DNA of 51,359 nucleotides from a phage. A program made the translations under genes and the position numbers. The stretch lies in the sequence record PZ452592.1; one strand, given 5' to 3'. Below the pieces are notes generated by a model. It was not told the origin of the DNA. It made no database searches and worked only from the letters and a program-made list of their open reading frames with translations. This document shows, one piece after another, positions 1 through 32,335 of the stretch. Every line of letters starts with the position of its first letter. The first letter of the stretch is position 1.

Positions 1-1569
1 ATGATCATATGGGAAGATTTGACGGCGGCGCAAAAGCGAGCCATTAAAGAAATCAGTGAGCATTCATTCGAAAAGATGATCAGAATCTGGTTTCAGTTAT
101 TGCAGGGGCAAAAATTCCAGAGCAACTGGCATTTTAGCTTATTGTGCAGTGAGGTAGAGAAGATCATCAATGGAGAGTCGCAGAATGTGATTTTCAACAT
201 TACGCCAGGTAGCGGTAAGACTGAGATTTTCTCGATCCACATGTCACCCTACGCGTCATTGAAAAGTCGTAAGGTGAGAAACCTTAACCTTTCGTTTAGT
301 GATGGACTTGTCCAGCAAAACAGCAACAGGATAAAGGAGATTATCGGTTCTCCTGAGTGGCAAGAGCTATGGCCAGGAAAACTGGCAAAGGCGAGCGCAA
401 AAGATCTCATAGTTACGGATGGCGGCAAGGTTAAATTGCAAGTTAACTCACGTTCTATTGGCGGACAGGTAACAGGTTTGCGTGGCGGCTATATGGATGA
501 TGGTTTTACTGGTATGCTGGTTCTGGACGATCCAGACAAGCCTGATGATATGCTTTCTAAGGTCAAGCGTGAGGCGATCCACATGAGGTTAAAAAACACA
601 GTGCGTTCTCGTCGAATGAAAGACACCACGCCAATTGTTATGGTGCAACAGCGACTACACGTTAATGATTCCACCTGGTTCATGCTTAATGGCGGGATGG
701 GCGGTATTGAGTTTAAAGTTGTGAGCATTCCTGCGCTGGTTACGAAAGAATACCGCGAAACGCTTCCTGATTGGTTGAAGCCTGAATTTGATCGTGATGT
801 GTTGTCAAGTAAGCCAGTGATGATAGATGGAGTTGCTCATTATTCATTTTGGCCTGCAAAGGAAAGCGCGGAGGAATTGCTTGCATTGCGCAATGCAGAT
901 CCTTACACGTTCGCCAGCCAATACCAACAACAACCCATCGCGCTTGGCGGCAACGTGTTTAAAACAGAGTGGTTCCAGTATTACGGCAGCGGCGAAAAAT
1001 GCGCACTTCCTAAACCGGATCGCTTTGAATACACATTTATTACTGGAGATACAGCACAGAAGGCCGGAGAGCTTAACGACTATTCAGTTTTTTGTTATTG
1101 GGGGATGTATAAAAATCGCGTTTACTTCATTGATGGCATTCGCGGCAAGTGGGAAGCGCCAGATCTTGAATTAAATTTTATTGCCTTCGTTAATCAGTGC
1201 TGGAAGCGCAATAAGGAGTGTGGCAGCTTGCGACGTATTCACATTGAGGATAAGGCCAGCGGCACGGGTTTGATTCAGGGGGCCAAAAAGAAGATCCCGA
1301 TTGATATAAATCCCGTTCAGCGAAGCAATGACAAGGTAACGCGAGCAATGGACGCCGCGCCAGTAATGAGGGCAGGACGTGTGGCACTGCCAGAAAGTCA
1401 TCCCATGTTACCTGAGATACTGGCAGAGGTTGCAGCGTTCACTTTTGACGATTCTCATCCCCATGATGATATTGTCGATAATATAGTTGATGCTGTTAAC
1501 GTCGAAATGAACTTGGCAGATGATCCGGTAGCAAGGATGAAAAAGCTGGCTGGTCTACGCAATAAATAG
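1..1569 (+). CDS. terL: terminase large subunit
   Basis: 522-aa ORF with P-loop-like TPGSGKTE; directly follows terS (wrapping from window end) and precedes portal. Confidence 0.85.
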   Translation: MIIWEDLTAAQKRAIKEISEHSFEKMIRIWFQLLQGQKFQSNWHFSLLCSEVEKIINGESQNVIFNITPGSGKTEIFSIHMSPYASLKSRKVRNLNLSFSDGLVQQNSNRIKEIIGSPEWQELWPGKLAKASAKDLIVTDGGKVKLQVNSRSIGGQVTGLRGGYMDDGFTGMLVLDDPDKPDDMLSKVKREAIHMRLKNTVRSRRMKDTTPIVMVQQRLHVNDSTWFMLNGGMGGIEFKVVSIPALVTKEYRETLPDWLKPEFDRDVLSSKPVMIDGVAHYSFWPAKESAEELLALRNADPYTFASQYQQQPIALGGNVFKTEWFQYYGSGEKCALPKPDRFEYTFITGDTAQKAGELNDYSVFCYWGMYKNRVYFIDGIRGKWEAPDLELNFIAFVNQCWKRNKECGSLRRIHIEDKASGTGLIQGAKKKIPIDINPVQRSNDKVTRAMDAAPVMRAGRVALPESHPMLPEILAEVAAFTFDDSHPHDDIVDNIVDAVNVEMNLADDPVARMKKLAGLRNK

Positions 1570-8393: not shown

Positions 8394-8826
8394 TTATAAG
8401 ATCAGGGAATTTCACGGTGATATAAGCAGATGGATTGATTCAGTAAGCAGCGGCCTTGTTGATTGCGTTGAAATGTTCGCGACAAACGTCCACGAGGATC
8501 TTGTAAAGCGTTCGCCAGTTGATACGGGCCGATATAAAGCTAACTGGCAGGTAACAGCAAACAAGCCGCCGCTATATGCGCTCAATCAATACGATCGCGA
8601 TGGTAGTAAAACCATTGCAGAAGGCAAGCGAGCAATATATGCAATCATGCGGGGCGGTGGCGCGGTGCGGTCAATCTATTTTTCAAACATGCTTATTTAC
8701 GCCAATGCGCTTGAATACGGGCATTCAAAACAAGCGCCGTCCGGCGTGCTGGGAATCGTGGCGGTAAAGCTGCGATCCTATATGACTAAGGCAATAAATG
8801 ATTCGAGGGCAAAAAATGCACTATGA
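8383..8826 (+). CDS. HK97 gp10-like tail completion/neck protein
   Basis: motif PVDTGRYKANW and YANALEYG resemble the HK97 gp10 family; RBS AAGGAGG. Confidence 0.55.
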   Translation: MADNYKIREFHGDISRWIDSVSSGLVDCVEMFATNVHEDLVKRSPVDTGRYKANWQVTANKPPLYALNQYDRDGSKTIAEGKRAIYAIMRGGGAVRSIYFSNMLIYANALEYGHSKQAPSGVLGIVAVKLRSYMTKAINDSRAKNAL

Positions 8827-9217
8827 TTTAATGTTAGCGGCAAGAAAGGCGCTGGCGGCGGAATATGAATCACGATTCAAGATCGCCTATGAAAACGTTG
8901 ATTTTGTTCCGCCTGGTGATGGTTCGATGTGGTTAAAATTTGACTACATGGAAGCCGACACAGATCGCATATCTCTTGATAGAAAATGCGTTTCTTATAT
9001 CGGATTGGTTCAGGTTGGAATTGTTATGCCTCCTGGCGGCGGCACTGATAAAGCGCGTTTGCTGGCTAAAGAGATTGCGAGATTTTTCTATGATGGTAGA
9101 ATGTTTGAAACTGGCTATATTAGCGAGGGGGCAAACGTCCACGCATTACTAAAAAGTGAAACAGGTTGGTTCTTACCGATCCGTTTCAGTGTTAGGCTTG
9201 ACACAAAGGAGGAATAA
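8816..9217 (+). CDS. putative tail terminator/tail completion protein
   Basis: 133-aa ORF just upstream of major tail gene; RBS GAGGG. Confidence 0.4.
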   Translation: MHYDLMLAARKALAAEYESRFKIAYENVDFVPPGDGSMWLKFDYMEADTDRISLDRKCVSYIGLVQVGIVMPPGGGTDKARLLAKEIARFFYDGRMFETGYISEGANVHALLKSETGWFLPIRFSVRLDTKEE

Positions 9218-9219
9218 TC

Positions 9220-9882
9220 ATGCACTTGCCTAATGGTTCTCAAATTTTCATCGGCGTTAATATGGGTGAGCCAATTAGCGCGACTCAAATCAGCAATGCT
9301 GATAATCCTGTTTTTACAACCGAAAACACTCAAAGCATCAAAAAAGGCGCTTATGTTCTTATTGAAACATCTTCTTGGGGCAAACTTGTTAGTCGAGTGC
9401 TTCGAGTTAAGGAAGTATCAGATAATGTAAGTGTTACTCTTGAGGGTGTTAGCACTAAAGATACAAACGTATTTCCAGAAGGACAGAACACAGCAACTTT
9501 CCGAGAAGTGAAATCTTGGGTAGAGGTTCCTTGCGTACAGGATCTTGCGCAGGACGGCGGCGAGCAACAGTATTACACTTATCAGTGTTTGGCTGATGAC
9601 CAGGAACAGCAGTTACCGACCTACAAGAGCGCGGTTTCTCTTACCTACACTTTCGCTCATGAATATGATAACCCGATTTATCCGATCTTGCGCGAGGCTG
9701 AGGAATCCGGCGACGTAACAGCTTTGCGTATGTACGTTCCTAAAGCTAAAGAGATGCGTTGCTGGGCTGGCGTATTGTCCTTTAATGACATTCCGCAAAC
9801 AACTATGAACGAAATGGAAACTGTTTCCCTTTCCGTATCTCTGAAAGGTCGATTCACGTTCTTACCTTCTGACGTTAAGTAA
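9220..9882 (+). CDS. major tail (tube) protein
   Basis: 220-aa ORF, RBS AAGGAGG, followed by strong terminator; immediately upstream of G/GT chaperones and tape measure. Confidence 0.65.
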   Translation: MHLPNGSQIFIGVNMGEPISATQISNADNPVFTTENTQSIKKGAYVLIETSSWGKLVSRVLRVKEVSDNVSVTLEGVSTKDTNVFPEGQNTATFREVKSWVEVPCVQDLAQDGGEQQYYTYQCLADDQEQQLPTYKSAVSLTYTFAHEYDNPIYPILREAEESGDVTALRMYVPKAKEMRCWAGVLSFNDIPQTTMNEMETVSLSVSLKGRFTFLPSDVK

Positions 9883-9887
9883 AACAA

Positions 9888-9908
9888 GGGGCGTTGCGCC
9901 CCTTTTTT
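9888..9908 (+). terminator. intrinsic terminator
   Basis: hairpin GGGGCG-TTG-CGCCCC followed by T6. Confidence 0.8.
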
Positions 9909-9947
9909 CATTCCTGTAAAATCAATCTATCAAATAAATCAATTTCA

Positions 9948-9966
9948 CTTTTAACAAAAAGTGCTA
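9948..9966 (-). promoter_or_regulatory. inverted copy of conserved 19-mer box abutting the RBS of the chaperone gene
   Basis: CTTTTAACAAAAAGTGCTA on + strand, then CAAGGAG RBS. Confidence 0.3.
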
Positions 9967-9981
9967 CAAGGAGATCTTGAG

Positions 9982-10299
9982 ATGGCAAAGATGAAACTAA
10001 CGTTAGGCCCACTGCCTGATTTTAAGCTGCCTGTTTCTTTCGTGCTTCCAAATGGTGATGAGCAAGTTATTGTTTTTACCGTGCGCCACAAGAAGGCAAG
10101 CGAAATTCACGAACGATACACGGCAGAAAAGCCGATGAGCGACGTAGAAATGATCACCTTCCTTGCTTCCGGTTGGGATTTGGAAGATGAATTTAACGAG
10201 GAAAACGTTGCTAAATTGCTGGATTATTACCCGTCTGCGTCATTATCGCTGACTGGTCATTATATGAAAGCACTTGCGGGGCAGCGGGTAAAAAACTAA
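9982..10299 (+). CDS. tail assembly chaperone (G-like)
   Basis: 105-aa ORF between major tail and tape measure genes; ends just after slippery heptamer. Confidence 0.6.
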   Translation: MAKMKLTLGPLPDFKLPVSFVLPNGDEQVIVFTVRHKKASEIHERYTAEKPMSDVEMITFLASGWDLEDEFNEENVAKLLDYYPSASLSLTGHYMKALAGQRVKN

Positions 10300-10616
10300 A
10301 GCGGGCGGTTTACCTGTTTTACCTCAAGCCGCCAACTGACGCACAATTAGAGGCCGTCGGCCTATCCCGTTCAGACTACGAAGGGGAGGATCCGCCGGAG
10401 GTAATTTTTGATGAATCAATGTTTCAATCTTGGGATCTGTTTTGCGCTATGCAGACGCAATGGAGATCGACTAGCGGCAGTGTGTATGGGTTCGACTATA
10501 ACGTTTTGCCTATGCTTTTTGACATTTACAAGATTGAGGATCGGGAGATGGCGCTAAATGATTTGCGCATCATGGAACAAAAGGCGCTAGAAATGATTCA
10601 TTCAAACAAAACATAA
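9982..10616 (+). CDS. tail assembly chaperone frameshift product (GT-like)
   Basis: A AAA AAC at 10290-10296; -1 frame open from 10281 to stop at 10614-10616 with no ATG until 10419. Confidence 0.5.
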
Positions 10617-10636
10617 GCGCCGCGAGGCGCTTTTTT
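10617..10636 (+). terminator. intrinsic terminator
   Basis: hairpin GCGCC-GCGA-GGCGC followed by T6. Confidence 0.6.
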
Positions 10637-10655
10637 AATATCTGGAGGTTTTAAA

Positions 10656-13337
10656 ATGGCTGAAAAATACGCTGGCCTAACGCTAGGCGTTGACGTGTCG
10701 CAGGTCAACAATGCTGTTAAATCATTGCAGCAATTCAAGAAGGCAAACGACGACGCAAAAAAAAGCGTTAATGAATTTGTTGATTCTGAGGTTGTGGCCC
10801 GACAGCAAGCAAAACATCTTGCCGAAGAACTGGCGCGCCAGAAAGCAGAATTTAAGAAAATCCAGGAGTCAATTGATCCCACTGCATCAAAGATGGATAA
10901 GCTGCGAAAGGCAGCGACACAGCTTGATGCGCTATGGAAAAAGGGCGTTGTTCCTGATCAGACTTTTTTTGAGCTTGGGGCAATTCTTGAGACGCAGCAA
11001 AACAAGCTGATCGCAACCAAAAAAGCGATGACAGAGGAAGGCCGCGCGGCACTTGAGGAATCAAAGAACAAAGCGCGTGCAGCGGAAGAGGCTAAAAAAT
11101 TCGTCCAGGCTTTGCGTGAGCAGGAAGAAGCAGCCGGAAAAAGCAAGTCTGAATTGCTGGAAATGAAAGCGGCACAGCTTGGTGTTAGCCAGGAGGCAGC
11201 GCCTTACATCGCAAGGCTGAAAGAGCAGGAAAAGCAGATCCAAAAACTTGGAATTTCTACGGGTCAATACAAACAAGCAATGGCGCAATTGCCAATGCAG
11301 ATCACAGACGTGGTGACTTCACTTGCTTCTGGAATGCCTGTTTGGTTGGTCGCAATCCAGCAGGGCGGACAGATTAAGGATTCTTTTGGTGGCGCATCCA
11401 ATGCTTTAAAAGCGTTGCTATCTTTCCTGAATCCGGCAAACGTGGCGTTTGGCTTACTTTCAGGCACGCTGGCAATTGCTGCATATAATGCCTACAAAAC
11501 ACAGACAGAGTTTGAAGCAATTAAAAAAACCGTTCAGGAAACAACTGGCTTGACTGGTGATTTTGCCGAAAAGATTGCTATAGGAATCCAGGAGCTTTCC
11601 GACAAGACAGGCGAAAGCGCCGAAGATCTTGCAAAGGCTTACATCACCACGAAAGACGGCGCGATCGAGGCGATTAAAAAACTGGTTGACGTTGGCATGA
11701 CTTATGATGACGCAAAAAAGAAAGTCAACGAGTACAAGGGCGCGTCTAGCTTTGTCAGCTTGAATAACGAAATTGCAAACCACAAAAACAAAGTCCTTGA
11801 GTTGGGCGATTCGTGGTATGAGGTTTTGAAAGCGAAGCGTGATTACGCTTCCCCGTCCGGCGGCCTGTTAGGTAAGGATCTTGGCTATGTTAACCCTATG
11901 CTTAAGTTTGCACTTAACACTTATGAAGACATTGGAAAGGTCGTAAAAGATGCGAATAAGGACATGGCGGAACGAGCGGAGCGAATCGACAAAGAAAACC
12001 TGGCCTTAAACAGAGTGCGCGCAGCACAGGAGGCTTTAAACAAAGCCATTGAGGATCAGAAAAATGTGGCGCGTTCGGCTGATGAAGAACTGAAAAAGCG
12101 CGCGGCTGAAAACGTGGAGTTTAGGCGCAAAGAGCTTGAGGAAATCAAGAAGCAGGAGCAGAAAAAGAAAGAGGCTAAAGGTGGAATAGTTCGCGGCCCG
12201 ACTGAGCAGCTTGATAAAGAGTTGTACGTTTTAAAAGCGCAACTGGAGATGCTTAAAGAGCATCGCACTGTTAACGATGTTATTTCTCGCCAGCGTAAAT
12301 CATTATGGAGTATCGAAAAGCAGATCGAGATCCTGGAGGAAGCGCAGAGCAAGCGTAAATTGACCGGAGCGGAACAGGCGCTACTAAACGAGCAAAAAGC
12401 CGTTCTTGAAATGGCAAGGCAAAAAGCGGAGCTAGGGGATCAGATTGTTTTACAGGAGCGCAAAAACAAGCTGGAGCAAGATAGCATTAAGTTTATCCGT
12501 GAAACTCAGGCGGCTATTGATGTGCTTGGCCTTAAGCAACTTGGCTACACTGAAAAGCAGATCGAGCGTGAGCTAGAGTTACGCAAGCTGCGCACCGACT
12601 ACGAGGCGCAAGGCGGAAGCGTTAGCGATGAAGTTTTTCAGCAAATGGAGGCGAAACTTAAGCAGTATTATCAGACACAGGATGAGGTTCAAGGCAACTG
12701 GTTGGCAGGAGCAAAAAACGCATGGGAGATGTTCGCGGAAGATGCAAACAATGCCTATGGCAATGTTCAGCAGATCGCAAGCGAGGCGTTAAACGGCCTT
12801 ACAAACCAATTAGCGAATTTTATCGCTACTGGCAAGGCAAACTTTAAAGACTTCTCGACGGCTATCATCAAAATGATTATTCAGATGATCACGAAAATGG
12901 TCGTCTTTAATGCGTTATCTGGCCTGATGGGTGGTCAAACCTGGACGATGGGGAGCTTGCTTAAGAATATTGGCGGATTTGCTGGCGGTGGATACACTGG
13001 AGACGGCGGGAAGTATGAGCCAGCCGGAATTGTCCATAAAGGTGAATTTGTCATGACGAAGGAGGCGACGCAGCGTATCGGGGTAGGAAACTTGTACCGC
13101 ATGATGCGAGGCTATGCTAACGGCGGCGTTGTTGGTAGTTCCGGCTATACTGGCGGTGACGCTGTAACTGGTGGAGCACCTCAATTTAACATCGGCGGGA
13201 TTGATGTTAGCATCACTAACGGAAACGATCCGAAGGGCATCGAAACTGGTGTTAAGATGATCTTTACTGATATGATTAAACGTTCCTGTATGCAGGGCGG
13301 CGAGGTTTACGAATTTGTTATGAGCAAGCGAGGTTGA
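10656..13337 (+). CDS. tail tape measure protein
   Basis: 893-aa ORF, long coiled-coil-rich Ala/Lys/Glu/Gln sequence, Gly-rich C-terminal region; after G/GT. Confidence 0.85.
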   Translation: MAEKYAGLTLGVDVSQVNNAVKSLQQFKKANDDAKKSVNEFVDSEVVARQQAKHLAEELARQKAEFKKIQESIDPTASKMDKLRKAATQLDALWKKGVVPDQTFFELGAILETQQNKLIATKKAMTEEGRAALEESKNKARAAEEAKKFVQALREQEEAAGKSKSELLEMKAAQLGVSQEAAPYIARLKEQEKQIQKLGISTGQYKQAMAQLPMQITDVVTSLASGMPVWLVAIQQGGQIKDSFGGASNALKALLSFLNPANVAFGLLSGTLAIAAYNAYKTQTEFEAIKKTVQETTGLTGDFAEKIAIGIQELSDKTGESAEDLAKAYITTKDGAIEAIKKLVDVGMTYDDAKKKVNEYKGASSFVSLNNEIANHKNKVLELGDSWYEVLKAKRDYASPSGGLLGKDLGYVNPMLKFALNTYEDIGKVVKDANKDMAERAERIDKENLALNRVRAAQEALNKAIEDQKNVARSADEELKKRAAENVEFRRKELEEIKKQEQKKKEAKGGIVRGPTEQLDKELYVLKAQLEMLKEHRTVNDVISRQRKSLWSIEKQIEILEEAQSKRKLTGAEQALLNEQKAVLEMARQKAELGDQIVLQERKNKLEQDSIKFIRETQAAIDVLGLKQLGYTEKQIERELELRKLRTDYEAQGGSVSDEVFQQMEAKLKQYYQTQDEVQGNWLAGAKNAWEMFAEDANNAYGNVQQIASEALNGLTNQLANFIATGKANFKDFSTAIIKMIIQMITKMVVFNALSGLMGGQTWTMGSLLKNIGGFAGGGYTGDGGKYEPAGIVHKGEFVMTKEATQRIGVGNLYRMMRGYANGGVVGSSGYTGGDAVTGGAPQFNIGGIDVSITNGNDPKGIETGVKMIFTDMIKRSCMQGGEVYEFVMSKRG

Positions 13338-31590: not shown

Positions 31591-31848
31591 ATGAAAAAAG
31601 AGAGAAGCGTTTATTTAAATGAAACTGGCGAGTGGTTGTTATTTCGCGCTATGGTGTGCGATGCACTTGATAAAAACCCTAACGTGAAAAAGATGATTGA
31701 TTGCGATCCGTGGGAATTTTCAAGCGCATTAGATATTAGCTTTGATGAGACAAGAAAACTCCCTCTTGAAAAATGGCACGAACAAATCAGAAATGATATG
31801 CAAGAGTTTGTAGATTCGTGGAATTTTCAGAACGGAATGATCCACTAA
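31591..31848 (+). CDS. hypothetical protein
   Basis: 85-aa ORF, GGAG 8 nt upstream. Confidence 0.5.
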   Translation: MKKERSVYLNETGEWLLFRAMVCDALDKNPNVKKMIDCDPWEFSSALDISFDETRKLPLEKWHEQIRNDMQEFVDSWNFQNGMIH

Positions 31849-31891
31849 TAGCACTTTTTGTTAAAACGCCCGGCATTTTGTCGGGCATAAT
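31849..31891 (+). promoter_or_regulatory. 19-mer promoter cassette
   Basis: TAGCACTTTTTGTTAAAAC + 18-nt hairpin GCCCGGC...GTCGGGC + CATAAT, then TTCATCGAAACGAA leader. Confidence 0.5.
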
Positions 31892-31917
31892 TATTTCATC
31901 GAAACGAACGTGAGGAA

Positions 31918-32103
31918 ATGAAAATGGTAGTATATAGCAAGAAAGCATTTGACAAGGCGCAACAAGCCGCACGCGAGGCGGTAAAAGGTGGAACGAAAAA
32001 CAATATGCAGCTTGATTGGGGCGCTGCAATGATTCTACTTCGCGTTGCATATGGTCACTACCCATTAGAATTTGCGGAGGCATATTATAAGCATGAAGGT
32101 TGA
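31918..32103 (+). CDS. hypothetical protein
   Basis: 61-aa ORF after RBS GAGG (start 31918 or 31924). Confidence 0.5.
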   Translation: MKMVVYSKKAFDKAQQAAREAVKGGTKNNMQLDWGAAMILLRVAYGHYPLEFAEAYYKHEG

Positions 32104-32335
32104 ACAAGGTAGAGAGGCGGTATGGAATCACGCTAAAGAATGCGGAATAGCCGACGATATAAAGAAGATCGCGCAATACTTTGATATTGCAGATGTGAGC
32201 ATAATTAGCGGCGATAAGATGACTTTCCTCAAGGAAAGGCCGCGAAAAATGGTAAGAGTTCCAGCAGTTCCAACAAAAATTGATTTCAAAGAGGCAATGG
32301 CTAAAATCCGAGAGCCTCGCAAATATTATAAATGA
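32093..32335 (+). CDS. hypothetical protein
   Basis: 80-aa ORF from ATG 32093, GGAGG 12 nt upstream; overlaps previous stop. Confidence 0.45.
   Translation: MKVEQGREAVWNHAKECGIADDIKKIAQYFDIADVSIISGDKMTFLKERPRKMVRVPAVPTKIDFKEAMAKIREPRKYYK

What the first reader, a model, noticed from the sequence alone, without database searches (positions are those of the whole stretch)
9982..10616. Programmed -1 frameshift site in the tail assembly chaperone pair
The G-like ORF (9982..10299) ends 1 nt after the slippery heptamer A AAA AAC (10290..10296). The -1 frame is open from 10281 to the stop at 10614..10616 and has no ATG until 10419, so it is reachable only by frameshifting. This gives a G (105 aa) and a GT fusion (about 211 aa), as in lambda-like tail operons. 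The T part extends about 320 nt beyond the G stop.
Basis: partly seen in the sequence, partly recalled or inferred. Interest (0 to 1): 0.4.

Follow-up and report, generated by a model that had tools for sequence, protein, structure and literature searches.

The report
Tail chaperone G/GT frameshift site
This is the usual programmed -1 ribosomal frameshift that lets a T1-like E. coli phage make a short and a long tail-assembly chaperone from one gene pair; it is real and strongly conserved, but it is already known for this phage family.

Summary
The window is a Warwickvirus (Drexlerviridae, T1-like) coliphage. G (9982..10299, 105 aa, Pfam Phage_TAC_4) ends with the in-phase heptamer A AAA AAC (10290..10296), directly followed by TAA. 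The -1 frame runs on to 10616 with no ATG/GTG/TTG before 10419, and encodes a DUF1799 domain. The predicted 211-aa fusion matches PHROG 17368 end to end (E 5.6e-99). One correction: the -1 frame opens at 10215, not 10281.

Evidence that the shift is used:
- The 41 codons between the G stop and the first ATG are as conserved as the rest of the protein.
- Substitutions in that stretch fall mainly on the third codon position of the -1 frame.
- The Met at 10419 is not conserved and has no usable Shine-Dalgarno.
- The -1 architecture occurs in 78 of 80 IMG/VR relatives and about 1086 phage records.
- A AAA AAC plus stop is identical in 72 of the 80, down to about 35% protein identity.

Curated records of the relatives Stevie and Sushi already annotate the joined CDS. 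Genome papers on T1-like phages cite the conserved frameshift of Xu et al. 2004. Records of this genus simply omit it. A downstream hairpin is weak here and lineage-specific. Verdict: correct, ordinary, already known; no protein data exist.

The parts
9220..9882 (+). Major tail (tube) protein gene, upstream neighbour that defines the synteny
   Evidence: Pfam Phage_tail_3, E 2.2e-62; annotated as major tail protein in relatives
9886..9904 (+). Terminator-like hairpin plus T-run between the tube gene and G
   Evidence: Consensus scan, 8 pairs of which 6 are G-C; a terminator is annotated at the same place in Stevie and Sushi
9968..9973 (+). Shine-Dalgarno AAGGAG, 8 nt before the G start codon
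   Evidence: Read from the sequence
9982..10299 (+). G: short tail assembly (tape measure) chaperone, 105 aa, 11.9 kDa
   Evidence: Translation; Pfam Phage_TAC_4 5.2e-31 over residues 1-105; predicted mass
10290..10296 (+). Slippery heptamer A AAA AAC in the X XXY YYZ phase of G
   Evidence: identical in the Tempevirinae, Tunavirinae, Braunvirinae (Veterinaerplatzvirus), Nouzillyvirus and Dhillonvirus phages sampled, and in 72 of 80 IMG/VR relatives
10297..10299 (+). G stop codon TAA directly abutting the heptamer; a possible 'shifty stop' contributor
   Evidence: a stop (TAA or TGA) directly follows the heptamer in every relative that has the heptamer
10296..10616 (+). T extension in the -1 frame (106 codons plus stop), made only as the C-terminal half of the 211-aa, 24.3-kDa GT fusion (9982..10296 joined to 10296..10616)
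   Evidence: Translation; Pfam DUF1799 1.5e-12 starting at T residue 23, before the first Met at residue 42; fusion matches phrog_17368 over 1-209 against 1-211 of 213, E 5.6e-99; coding periodicity and conservation upstream of the ATG
10304..10333 (+). Candidate stimulatory hairpin (8 bp, 14-nt loop) 7 nt after the heptamer; weak in this phage
   Evidence: Fold (z -0.44). The homologous 7+4 bp hairpin is strong in L040 (probably T1), Stevie (L033) and most Tempevirinae and Tunavirinae (z about -2 to -5) but absent in other lineages
10419..10616 (+). The 65-aa ATG ORF that public records call as a separate gene; judged here to be an annotation artefact inside T
   Evidence: Annotated separately; the Met is not conserved; the nearest GGAGG is 17 nt upstream
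10615..10632 (+). Terminator-like hairpin plus T-run overlapping the T stop codon
   Evidence: Consensus scan; a terminator is annotated at the same place in Stevie and Sushi
10656..13337 (+). Tape measure protein gene, downstream neighbour and presumed client of G/GT
   Evidence: Pfam TMP_2 4.8e-35 and Tape_meas_lam_C 4e-22

Best explanation
Most ribosomes that translate G from ATG 9982 terminate at TAA 10297 and release the 105-aa chaperone G. A minority slip back one nucleotide on A AAA AAC (10290..10296): the tRNAs on AAA-AAC re-pair with AAA-AAA. Those ribosomes continue in the -1 frame to TAA 10614 and produce a 211-aa GT fusion with the predicted junction ...QRVKN-LKRAVYL.... By analogy with lambda (inferred, not shown here), many G copies and a few GT copies coat the tape measure protein through their shared G part. 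The T domain (DUF1799) recruits the tail tube protein. Neither protein ends up in the virion. The fixed low shift frequency sets the G:GT ratio. What the sequence shows: the frames, the heptamer, its conservation, and coding selection on T from the slip site onward. What is inferred: that slippage occurs, its efficiency, and the assembly role.
For: - Anatomy.
- G is Phage_TAC_4 and T is DUF1799. T homology begins 19 residues before the only Met.
- The fusion matches the 213-position phrog_17368 end to end.
- Synteny is tube gene, G/GT, tape measure, then M-, L-, K- and I-like genes.
- T residues 106-146 (upstream of the ATG) are 62% identical to the window across 16 relatives, against 55% for G and 59% for the rest of T. 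LKRAVY directly after the slip site is invariant in Drexlerviridae despite synonymous changes.
- Differences at codon positions 1/2/3 of the -1 frame over 10296..10418 are 10.8/7.5/22.8.
- T is in the -1 frame in all 21 loci fetched by hand, and in 78 of 80 IMG/VR loci; none has a long +1 extension. A AAA AAC plus stop is present in 72 of the 80.
- A Pseudomonas phage has G GGA AAC TGA at the same place.
- 1086 of 1129 phage records have both halves adjacent in two frames.
- Curated joined CDS exist in Sushi and Stevie. Stevie has the identical GTA AAA AAC TAA.
[quoted passage not shown] A_AAA_AAC is a known -1 site, less shift-prone in E. coli than A_AAA_AAG, and the lambda G:GT ratio of about 30:1 is required for tail assembly (PMC5009743).
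Against: - There is no protein-level evidence for this phage or, as far as I could find, for any Drexlerviridae member.
- The downstream hairpin is not better than shuffled sequence in this window and is not conserved family-wide.
- No conserved upstream Shine-Dalgarno-like stimulator is seen.
- Webervirus, Rogunavirus and two unclassified Klebsiella phages lack the heptamer and keep only an A-AAR tetramer, so the exact site is not universal.
- Conservation of the heptamer is partly confounded by dual coding in the overlap.
Confidence: 0.9

Rival explanations
1. T is an independent small protein (65 aa, 7.8 kDa) initiated at ATG 10419, as most public records annotate it. No fusion is made.
For: Gene callers and depositors annotate it this way. 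The 65-aa sequence is in public protein collections. Some relatives have a start codon in the T frame closer to the G stop (ATG in BrunoManser, GTG in 2005IV).
Against: The 41 codons upstream of the ATG are as conserved as the rest and show third-position periodicity in the T frame. DUF1799 and phrog_680 homology begins upstream of the Met. The Met is replaced by T, N, W, I or Y in relatives. The nearest GGAGG lies 17 nt upstream. No ATG/GTG/TTG lies between 10215 and 10419.
Confidence: 0.03
2. The frame change is made by RNA polymerase, not the ribosome. Slippage on the A6 run adds one A to a fraction of transcripts, and these then encode GT in one frame.
For: The site is a homopolymeric A run: A6 here and A7 in Dhillonvirus and the distant prophage-like group. 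One extra A gives exactly the GT frame, as the A8 variant L054 shows. Transcriptional slippage is an established recoding route (PMC5009743).
Against: From general knowledge, efficient slippage by bacterial RNA polymerase needs runs of about 8-9 or more, and A6 is short. Homologous sites without any run still keep the two-frame architecture: G GGA AAC in the Pseudomonas phage, and GCA AAA GTT / GCA AAG GTC in Webervirus and Rogunavirus. This points to a tRNA-slippage mechanism. The run is always in the X XXY YYZ phase.
Confidence: 0.04
3. This is a mechanistic variant of the same event. The shift is not a tandem two-tRNA slip. Instead a single peptidyl-tRNA(Asn) slips from AAC to AAA while the ribosome waits with the slowly decoded stop codon TAA in the A site (a 'shifty stop'). 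The abutting stop codon, rather than an RNA structure, would then be the stimulator.
For: A stop codon directly follows the heptamer in every relative that has the heptamer: 72 of 72 in IMG/VR and all hand-picked ones, TAA or TGA. In lambda the heptamer lies 5 codons before the G stop. The relatives that lack the heptamer keep a one-tRNA A-AAR slip site one codon before the stop. The hairpin is dispensable in several lineages. 'Shifty stops' are a described class (Weiss et al. 1987, cited in PMC5009743).
Against: The full heptamer, not just A AAC, is conserved, which suggests that two tRNAs matter. The adjacency of the stop could simply reflect where the G domain ends. No experiment bears on this.
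Confidence: 0.25
4. The two-frame arrangement is a sequencing or assembly error, or a pseudogene, of what is really a single ORF.
For: Homopolymer runs are error-prone. One IMG/VR relative (L054) does have the two halves in one frame.
Against: The same two-frame arrangement with the same run length occurs in about 1086 independently sequenced phage records and in 78 of 80 IMG/VR loci. L054 carries a second frame break inside T, so it looks damaged.
Confidence: 0.01

Closest known systems
Tape measure chaperone frameshift annotated in T1-like phages: Citrobacter phage Stevie KM236241 (CPT_Stevie15/16), Klebsiella phage Sushi KT001920 (CPT_Sushi14/15), Escherichia phage U136B
   Same: Homologous proteins: about 74% identity for Stevie (L033) and about 49% for Sushi. 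Same position between the tube and tape measure genes, with the same flanking terminators. Stevie has the identical GTA AAA AAC TAA and the homologous downstream hairpin (PMC4319613, PMC8104045).
   Different: This window belongs to another genus (Warwickvirus), whose public records I inspected do not annotate the join. Its hairpin has lost the inner helix through a CAG to CTC change. Sushi has only an A-AAA tetramer instead of the heptamer.
Bacteriophage lambda G / GT (Levin, Hendrix & Casjens 1993; Xu, Hendrix & Duda 2004, 2013, 2014)
   Same: Two overlapping ORFs lie between the major tail gene V and the tape measure gene H. The second ORF is in the -1 frame without its own initiation. A canonical X XXY YYZ heptamer sits near the 3' end of G. 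The short and long products share the N-terminal chaperone part (PMC5009743).
   Different: Different Pfam families: Phage_TAC_4 and DUF1799 here, Phage_TAC_2 and Phage_tail_T in lambda. There is no detectable profile homology (hhalign probability 0.5%). The proteins are smaller (105/211 aa against 140/279 aa). The heptamer is A AAA AAC rather than G GGA AAG, and it abuts the stop instead of lying 5 codons before it.
E. coli dnaX tau/gamma -1 frameshift (A AAA AAG)
   Same: A lysine-codon-rich A-run heptamer is decoded by E. coli ribosomes, and the -1 slip makes two products from one gene (PMC5009743).
   Different: dnaX uses the far more shift-prone A AAA AAG, with an upstream Shine-Dalgarno-like element and a strong downstream hairpin, and shifts at about 50% (from general knowledge). 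Here the last codon is AAC, no conserved upstream Shine-Dalgarno-like element is seen, the hairpin is weak, and the shifted product is the longer one.

Membership tests
G/GT-type tail assembly chaperone pair with conserved programmed frameshift (Xu et al. 2004 class) | Two overlapping ORFs located between the major tail (tube) protein gene and the tape measure protein gene | tested here: met
   Tube protein 9220..9882 (Phage_tail_3), G/T 9982..10616, tape measure 10656..13337 (TMP_2 + Tape_meas_lam_C)
G/GT-type tail assembly chaperone pair with conserved programmed frameshift (Xu et al. 2004 class) | The downstream ORF is in a shifted frame and lacks its own start codon and ribosome-binding site near its 5' end | tested here: met
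   -1 frame open 10215..10616. First ATG/GTG/TTG at 10419, which is 122 nt past the G stop, with GGAGG 17 nt upstream
G/GT-type tail assembly chaperone pair with conserved programmed frameshift (Xu et al. 2004 class) | A slippery sequence in the correct phase inside the overlap of the two frames | tested here: met
   A AAA AAC at 10290..10296 is the only in-phase X XXY YYZ in the 28-codon overlap
G/GT-type tail assembly chaperone pair with conserved programmed frameshift (Xu et al. 2004 class) | Architecture and slip site conserved among diverged relatives | tested here: met
   -1 extension of 100-106 codons in 78 of 80 IMG/VR loci and in all 21 hand-picked loci. The heptamer plus stop is identical in 72 of the 80. 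1086 phage records show the two-piece match
G/GT-type tail assembly chaperone pair with conserved programmed frameshift (Xu et al. 2004 class) | The shifted-frame region is translated from the slip site onward (coding selection upstream of any start codon) | tested here: met
   Residues 106-146 are 62% conserved. The third-position excess is 22.8 against 10.8 and 7.5. LKRAVY is invariant with synonymous variation
G/GT-type tail assembly chaperone pair with conserved programmed frameshift (Xu et al. 2004 class) | The fusion protein is actually produced at a low fixed ratio to G | not testable with these tools
   Needs a western blot, mass spectrometry or ribosome profiling. I found no such data for Drexlerviridae
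G/GT-type tail assembly chaperone pair with conserved programmed frameshift (Xu et al. 2004 class) | G and GT are required for tail assembly, bind the tape measure protein, and are absent from virions | not testable with these tools
   Inferred from lambda (PMC5009743) and from synteny only
Pfam Phage_TAC_4 (PF08748) / DUF1799 (PF08809); PHROG 17368 | Score above the curated Pfam gathering thresholds; full-length match to the fusion profile | tested here: met
   107.9 bits against a cut-off of 21.1; 48 bits against a cut-off of 26; phrog_17368 at 331 bits covering 1-209 of 211 residues
Lambda gpG / gpT sequence families (Pfam Phage_TAC_2 PF06894, Phage_tail_T PF06223) | Detectable sequence homology to lambda G and T | tested here: not met
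   Window G and T hit neither family, whereas lambda G and T do. hhalign of the family alignment against lambda GT gives probability 0.5%. The window pair works like lambda G/GT but is not a member of its sequence families
Canonical -1 PRF cassette (heptamer + spacer + stimulatory RNA structure) | A stable, conserved downstream stem-loop or pseudoknot 5-9 nt after the heptamer | tested here: inconclusive
   An 8-bp hairpin lies 7 nt downstream but is no better than shuffles. The homologous hairpin is strong in Tempevirinae and Tunavirinae (z -2 to -5) and absent in the Braunvirinae, Rogunavirus and distant lineages.

The most novel reading that the evidence does not exclude
The strictly conserved contact between the heptamer and the G stop codon (A AAA AAC-TAA/TGA, unlike lambda) is itself the frameshift stimulator. 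The ribosome would pause on the slowly decoded stop with tRNA(Asn) in the P site, and the slip would compete with release-factor binding. The G:GT ratio, and hence tail assembly, would then be tuned by the host's termination efficiency rather than by an RNA structure. This would explain why the hairpin can decay, as it has in this window, without loss of the system.
Probability: 0.2. Interest if true: 0.35.

Novelty: already known. Interest (0 to 1): 0.1.

Why it matters
The biology is textbook: tailed phages set the ratio of two tail-assembly chaperones by a fixed low-frequency -1 frameshift. The practical value here is curatorial.

- The Warwickvirus records I inspected, including RefSeq entries, list G plus a truncated 65-aa ORF instead of the 211-aa GT protein.
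- PHROG-derived annotations mislabel both ORFs as 'tail length tape measure protein'.
- The exact fusion sequence is absent from a collection of about 15 billion proteins.

Correct GT models matter for proteomics searches and for structural modelling of tail assembly. They also matter for work on defence systems that sense tail assembly chaperones; the Avs17 preprint notes that the short and long isoforms share the N-terminal core (bioRxiv 10.64898/2026.01.04.697583).

The only mildly interesting mechanistic point is the invariant heptamer-stop adjacency, together with the choice of the less shift-prone AAC over AAG.

Tried and rejected
- Downstream stimulatory structure. I folded 84-nt and 181-nt segments. 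I tested the hairpin on a 15-sequence alignment with pair counts and RNAalifold, and folded 69 unique downstream regions against shuffles. The hairpin is lineage-specific, weak in this window and confounded by conserved codons, so I do not claim it as part of the signal.
- Upstream Shine-Dalgarno-like stimulator. GGGG/GCGGG lies upstream of the heptamer in the window but is not conserved (GCTGGTCAACGAGT in BubbaBully). Rejected.
- An alternative slip at G GGG (10278..10281) inside the overlap. It is possible in principle but not conserved in relatives. Rejected as the programmed site.
- First genome-wide control. It was too loose, because neighbouring genes often overlap in the -1 frame. I refined it by the position of the first start codon.
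- Minus-strand ORF 32176..31787 with a start-less -1 extension. It is antisense to plus-strand genes and starts with TTG, so I judged it an artefact.
- Solved structures by sequence: no hit.
- Structure prediction and fold search were not run. They would have needed the costly protein database search for an admissible alignment, and the Pfam and PHROG matches already settle the family.
- Xu et al. 2004 could not be read in the library. No paper links Warwickvirus to the frameshift.
- Homology to lambda GT: none.

Full report
**What the window is.** The stretch 9200..10700 is 98-99% identical to Escherichia phages vB_EcoS-G3B1, tunus, orkinos and others. These are Drexlerviridae, Tempevirinae, genus Warwickvirus, that is, T1-like siphophages. 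The finding lies in a lambda-like tail module confirmed by Pfam:
- tail terminator 8798..9217
- tail tube protein 9220..9882
- the two ORFs in question
- tape measure protein 10656..13337
- M-, L-, K- and I-like genes after that

**Check of the observation.** The sequence reads ...GCG GGG CAG CGG GTA AAA AAC TAA A....
- G runs from ATG 9982, with AAGGAG 8 nt upstream, to TAA 10297..10299 and encodes 105 aa.
- AAAAAAC at 10290..10296 is in the X XXY YYZ phase of G, and the stop codon abuts it.
- The -1 frame is open from 10215 to TAA 10614..10616.
- The -1 frame contains no ATG, GTG or TTG before the ATG at 10419.
- The +1 frame is full of stops.
- A slip on the heptamer gives 105 + 106 = 211 aa. 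The predicted masses are 11.9 kDa for G and 24.3 kDa for GT.
- The heptamer alone is not remarkable, since AAAAAAC occurs 18 times on the + strand.
- The combination is unique in the window. Of 113 ORFs of at least 80 aa on both strands, only this one has a heptamer abutting its stop, a long -1 extension, and a first start codon more than 100 nt (122 nt) past the stop.

**What the two halves are.**
- G matches Pfam Phage_TAC_4 (tail assembly chaperone) over its whole length, E 5.2e-31.
- The T extension matches DUF1799, E 1.5e-12, from T residue 23. The first Met is residue 42, so the homology begins before it.
- In PHROGs the T extension matches phrog_680 from residue 9.
- The predicted fusion matches the 213-position phrog_17368 from end to end (residues 1-209 against profile 1-211, E 5.6e-99). 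That family is built from fused proteins of this kind.

**Is the -1 frame translated from the slip site?** I rebuilt the fusion in 16 relatives that are 30-74% identical to the window and aligned them.
- The 41 residues between the slip site and the window's first Met are 62% identical to the window on average. G scores 55% and the rest of T scores 59%.
- The Met itself is replaced by T, N, W, I or Y in various relatives.
- The first residues after the slip, L-K-R-A-V-Y, are invariant in Drexlerviridae, while their codons vary synonymously: AAG/AAA, CGG/AGG/CGC, GCG/GCC/GCA, GTT/GTC/GTA/GTG, TAC/TAT.
- Over 10296..10418 in 12 gap-free Drexlerviridae sequences, summed pairwise differences at codon positions 1, 2 and 3 of the -1 frame are 10.8, 7.5 and 22.8.
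- The only Shine-Dalgarno-like sequence near ATG 10419 (GGAGG 10397..10401) is 17 nt away.

This stretch is therefore translated in the T frame. No start codon can account for that, so ribosomes must arrive from G.

**Conservation of the site.**
- tblastn with the fusion finds 1129 phage records. In 1086 of them both halves lie adjacent as two pieces, which means two frames.
- In all 21 loci I fetched by hand, T is in the -1 frame and extends 102-106 codons past the G stop.
- A AAA AAC followed at once by a stop is identical in Warwickvirus, Hanrivervirus, Henuseptimavirus, Changchunvirus, Sertoctavirus, Tunavirus, Nouzillyvirus, the Braunvirinae phage (Veterinaerplatzvirus) and the more distant Dhillonvirus. 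The synonymous positions just upstream of it vary.
- A Pseudomonas phage has G GGA AAC TGA at the same place.
- Webervirus (GCA AAA GTT TAA), Rogunavirus (GCA AAG GTC TAA) and two unclassified Klebsiella phages keep only an A-AAR one-tRNA slip motif.
- An independent scan of IMG/VR gave 80 loci down to about 34% identity. Of these, 78 have a -1 extension of at least 90 codons, none has a long +1 extension, and 72 carry A AAA AAC plus TAA or TGA. They include L040, a 48,836-bp contig that I take to be T1 from its length (from memory, not verified with a tool). Many of the 80 are close relatives of one another, so they are not 80 independent events, but several deep lineages are represented.

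**Stimulatory elements.**
- An 8-bp hairpin (10304..10311 with 10326..10333, 14-nt loop) starts 7 nt after the heptamer, which is the canonical spacing. Its energy is not better than that of shuffled sequence (z -0.44).
- In L040 (probably T1), L033 (Stevie) and most Tempevirinae and Tunavirinae, the homologous hairpin has an extra inner helix (7+4 bp, -16 to -20 kcal/mol, z about -2 to -5).
- In the window that inner helix is lost because CAG (Gln) is CTC (Leu).
- The hairpin is absent in the Braunvirinae and Rogunavirus phages and in the distant prophage-like group.
- RNAalifold finds no consensus structure. Pair counts are only modestly above the controls (77.5% paired against 72% in shuffles).
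- The stem is made of conserved codons: (R/K)-A-V and P-P.

I therefore treat the hairpin as a possible, lineage-specific enhancer and not as an established part of the signal. No conserved upstream Shine-Dalgarno-like element is present. The one invariant flanking feature is the stop codon touching the heptamer. In lambda, by contrast, G GGA AAG lies 5 codons before the G stop.

**Mechanism proposed.** This is a -1 ribosomal frameshift on A AAA AAC in a minority of ribosomes. According to the review PMC5009743, A_AAA_AAC is a recognised -1 site but is much less shift-prone in E. coli than A_AAA_AAG. That fits a system which in lambda needs a G:GT ratio of about 30:1. The roles are inferred from lambda: G and the G part of GT coat the tape measure protein, the T domain recruits the tube protein, and both are absent from virions. 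Whether the slip is a tandem slip, or a P-site slip with the stop codon in the A site, cannot be decided from sequence. I give the second variant about 0.25.

**Rivals.**
- Independent initiation at 10419 is contradicted by the conservation upstream of it.
- Transcriptional slippage on A6 would give the same protein. However, the run is short, and homologous sites without any run (G GGA AAC; A-AAR) keep the same architecture.
- A sequencing error is excluded by the number of independent genomes. One IMG/VR locus (L054) has A8 instead of A7 and so a fused frame with junction REKK-LRQ, but it has a second frame break inside T and looks damaged.

**Comparison with what is known.**
- The curated records of Citrobacter phage Stevie (Tempevirinae, identical GTA AAA AAC TAA) and Klebsiella phage Sushi (Webervirus) carry a two-piece joined CDS named 'tape measure chaperone' alongside the short one.
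- U136B was annotated in the same way (PMC8104045), and the Rogue1 paper proposed a G-T fusion (PMC3496638).
- The phenomenon is therefore already known for this family.
- The Warwickvirus records I inspected list G plus a 65-aa ORF, or G alone. The exact 211-aa fusion is absent from the collection of about 15 billion proteins, while G and the 65-aa ORF are present.
- Relative to lambda, the system works the same way but is not a member of lambda's sequence families. Lambda G and T are Phage_TAC_2 and Phage_tail_T, and the profile comparison finds no homology.

**Verdict.** The feature is a genuine and very well conserved programmed -1 frameshift. It is ordinary and already described for T1-like phages. 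The remaining uncertainty is experimental: no product has been shown, and the stimulator is unknown. Interest is low.

Noticed in passing
window 9982..10616; L001-L003, L008: Public Warwickvirus records, including RefSeq entries, annotate G plus a truncated 65-aa ORF (or G alone) and no joined GT CDS. PHROG/pharokka-style records label both chaperone ORFs 'tail length tape measure protein', following the descriptions of phrog_17368, phrog_569 and phrog_680. The exact 211-aa fusion is absent from the collection of about 15 billion proteins.
   Followed up: yes
L054 about 1225..1240 (IMGVR_UViG_2619619144_000009); L053: L054 has A8 instead of A7 at the slip site, so G and T are fused in one frame (junction REKK-LRQVAAA). 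That is exactly the product expected from a -1 shift. A second frame break occurs later in T. L053 also has a break inside T. These are either decaying prophages or homopolymer sequencing errors.
   Followed up: partly
window 10304..10333 compared with L040 (probably T1), L033 (Stevie) and others: Most Tempevirinae and Tunavirinae have a strong 7+4 bp hairpin 7-8 nt after the heptamer (z -2 to -5). In this window the inner helix is lost through a Gln (CAG) to Leu (CTC) change, leaving an 8-bp stem with a 14-nt loop. If the hairpin matters, frameshift efficiency might differ between genera.
   Followed up: partly
window 10479..10517 (T residues YGFDYNVLPMLFD) against lambda T: The only stretch that hhalign aligns between this family and lambda GT is the conserved T-domain core motif, YGFDYNVLPMLFD against SGLTYTVLSLFFS. 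It is not significant (E 0.12) but hints that DUF1799 and Phage_tail_T may be distantly related.
   Followed up: no
window 9886..9904 and 10615..10632: Terminator-like hairpins with T-runs bracket the G/GT cassette, one right after the tube gene and one overlapping the T stop codon. Both are annotated as terminators in Stevie and Sushi. They may attenuate transcription into the chaperone and tape measure genes.
   Followed up: partly
cluster members of window G and of the 65-aa ORF: Proteins in the same 90%-identity clusters as G and the 65-aa ORF are deposited under Xanthomonas hyacinthi DSM 19077 (a partial 100-aa G on an 848-bp contig, and the identical 65-aa ORF) and under Shigella flexneri assemblies (including a 100-aa version of the T ORF). 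This is most likely phage carry-over or contamination in bacterial assemblies.
   Followed up: no
window 31787..32176 (- strand): This ORF has a 58-codon -1 extension with no start codon at all. It starts with TTG and lies antisense to plus-strand ORFs, so I judged it a chance ORF.
   Followed up: yes
L104 (lambda NC_001416 9711..10549): Even the lambda RefSeq record in this collection lists G and T as two separate CDS (T from 10115) without a joined GT feature.
   Followed up: no
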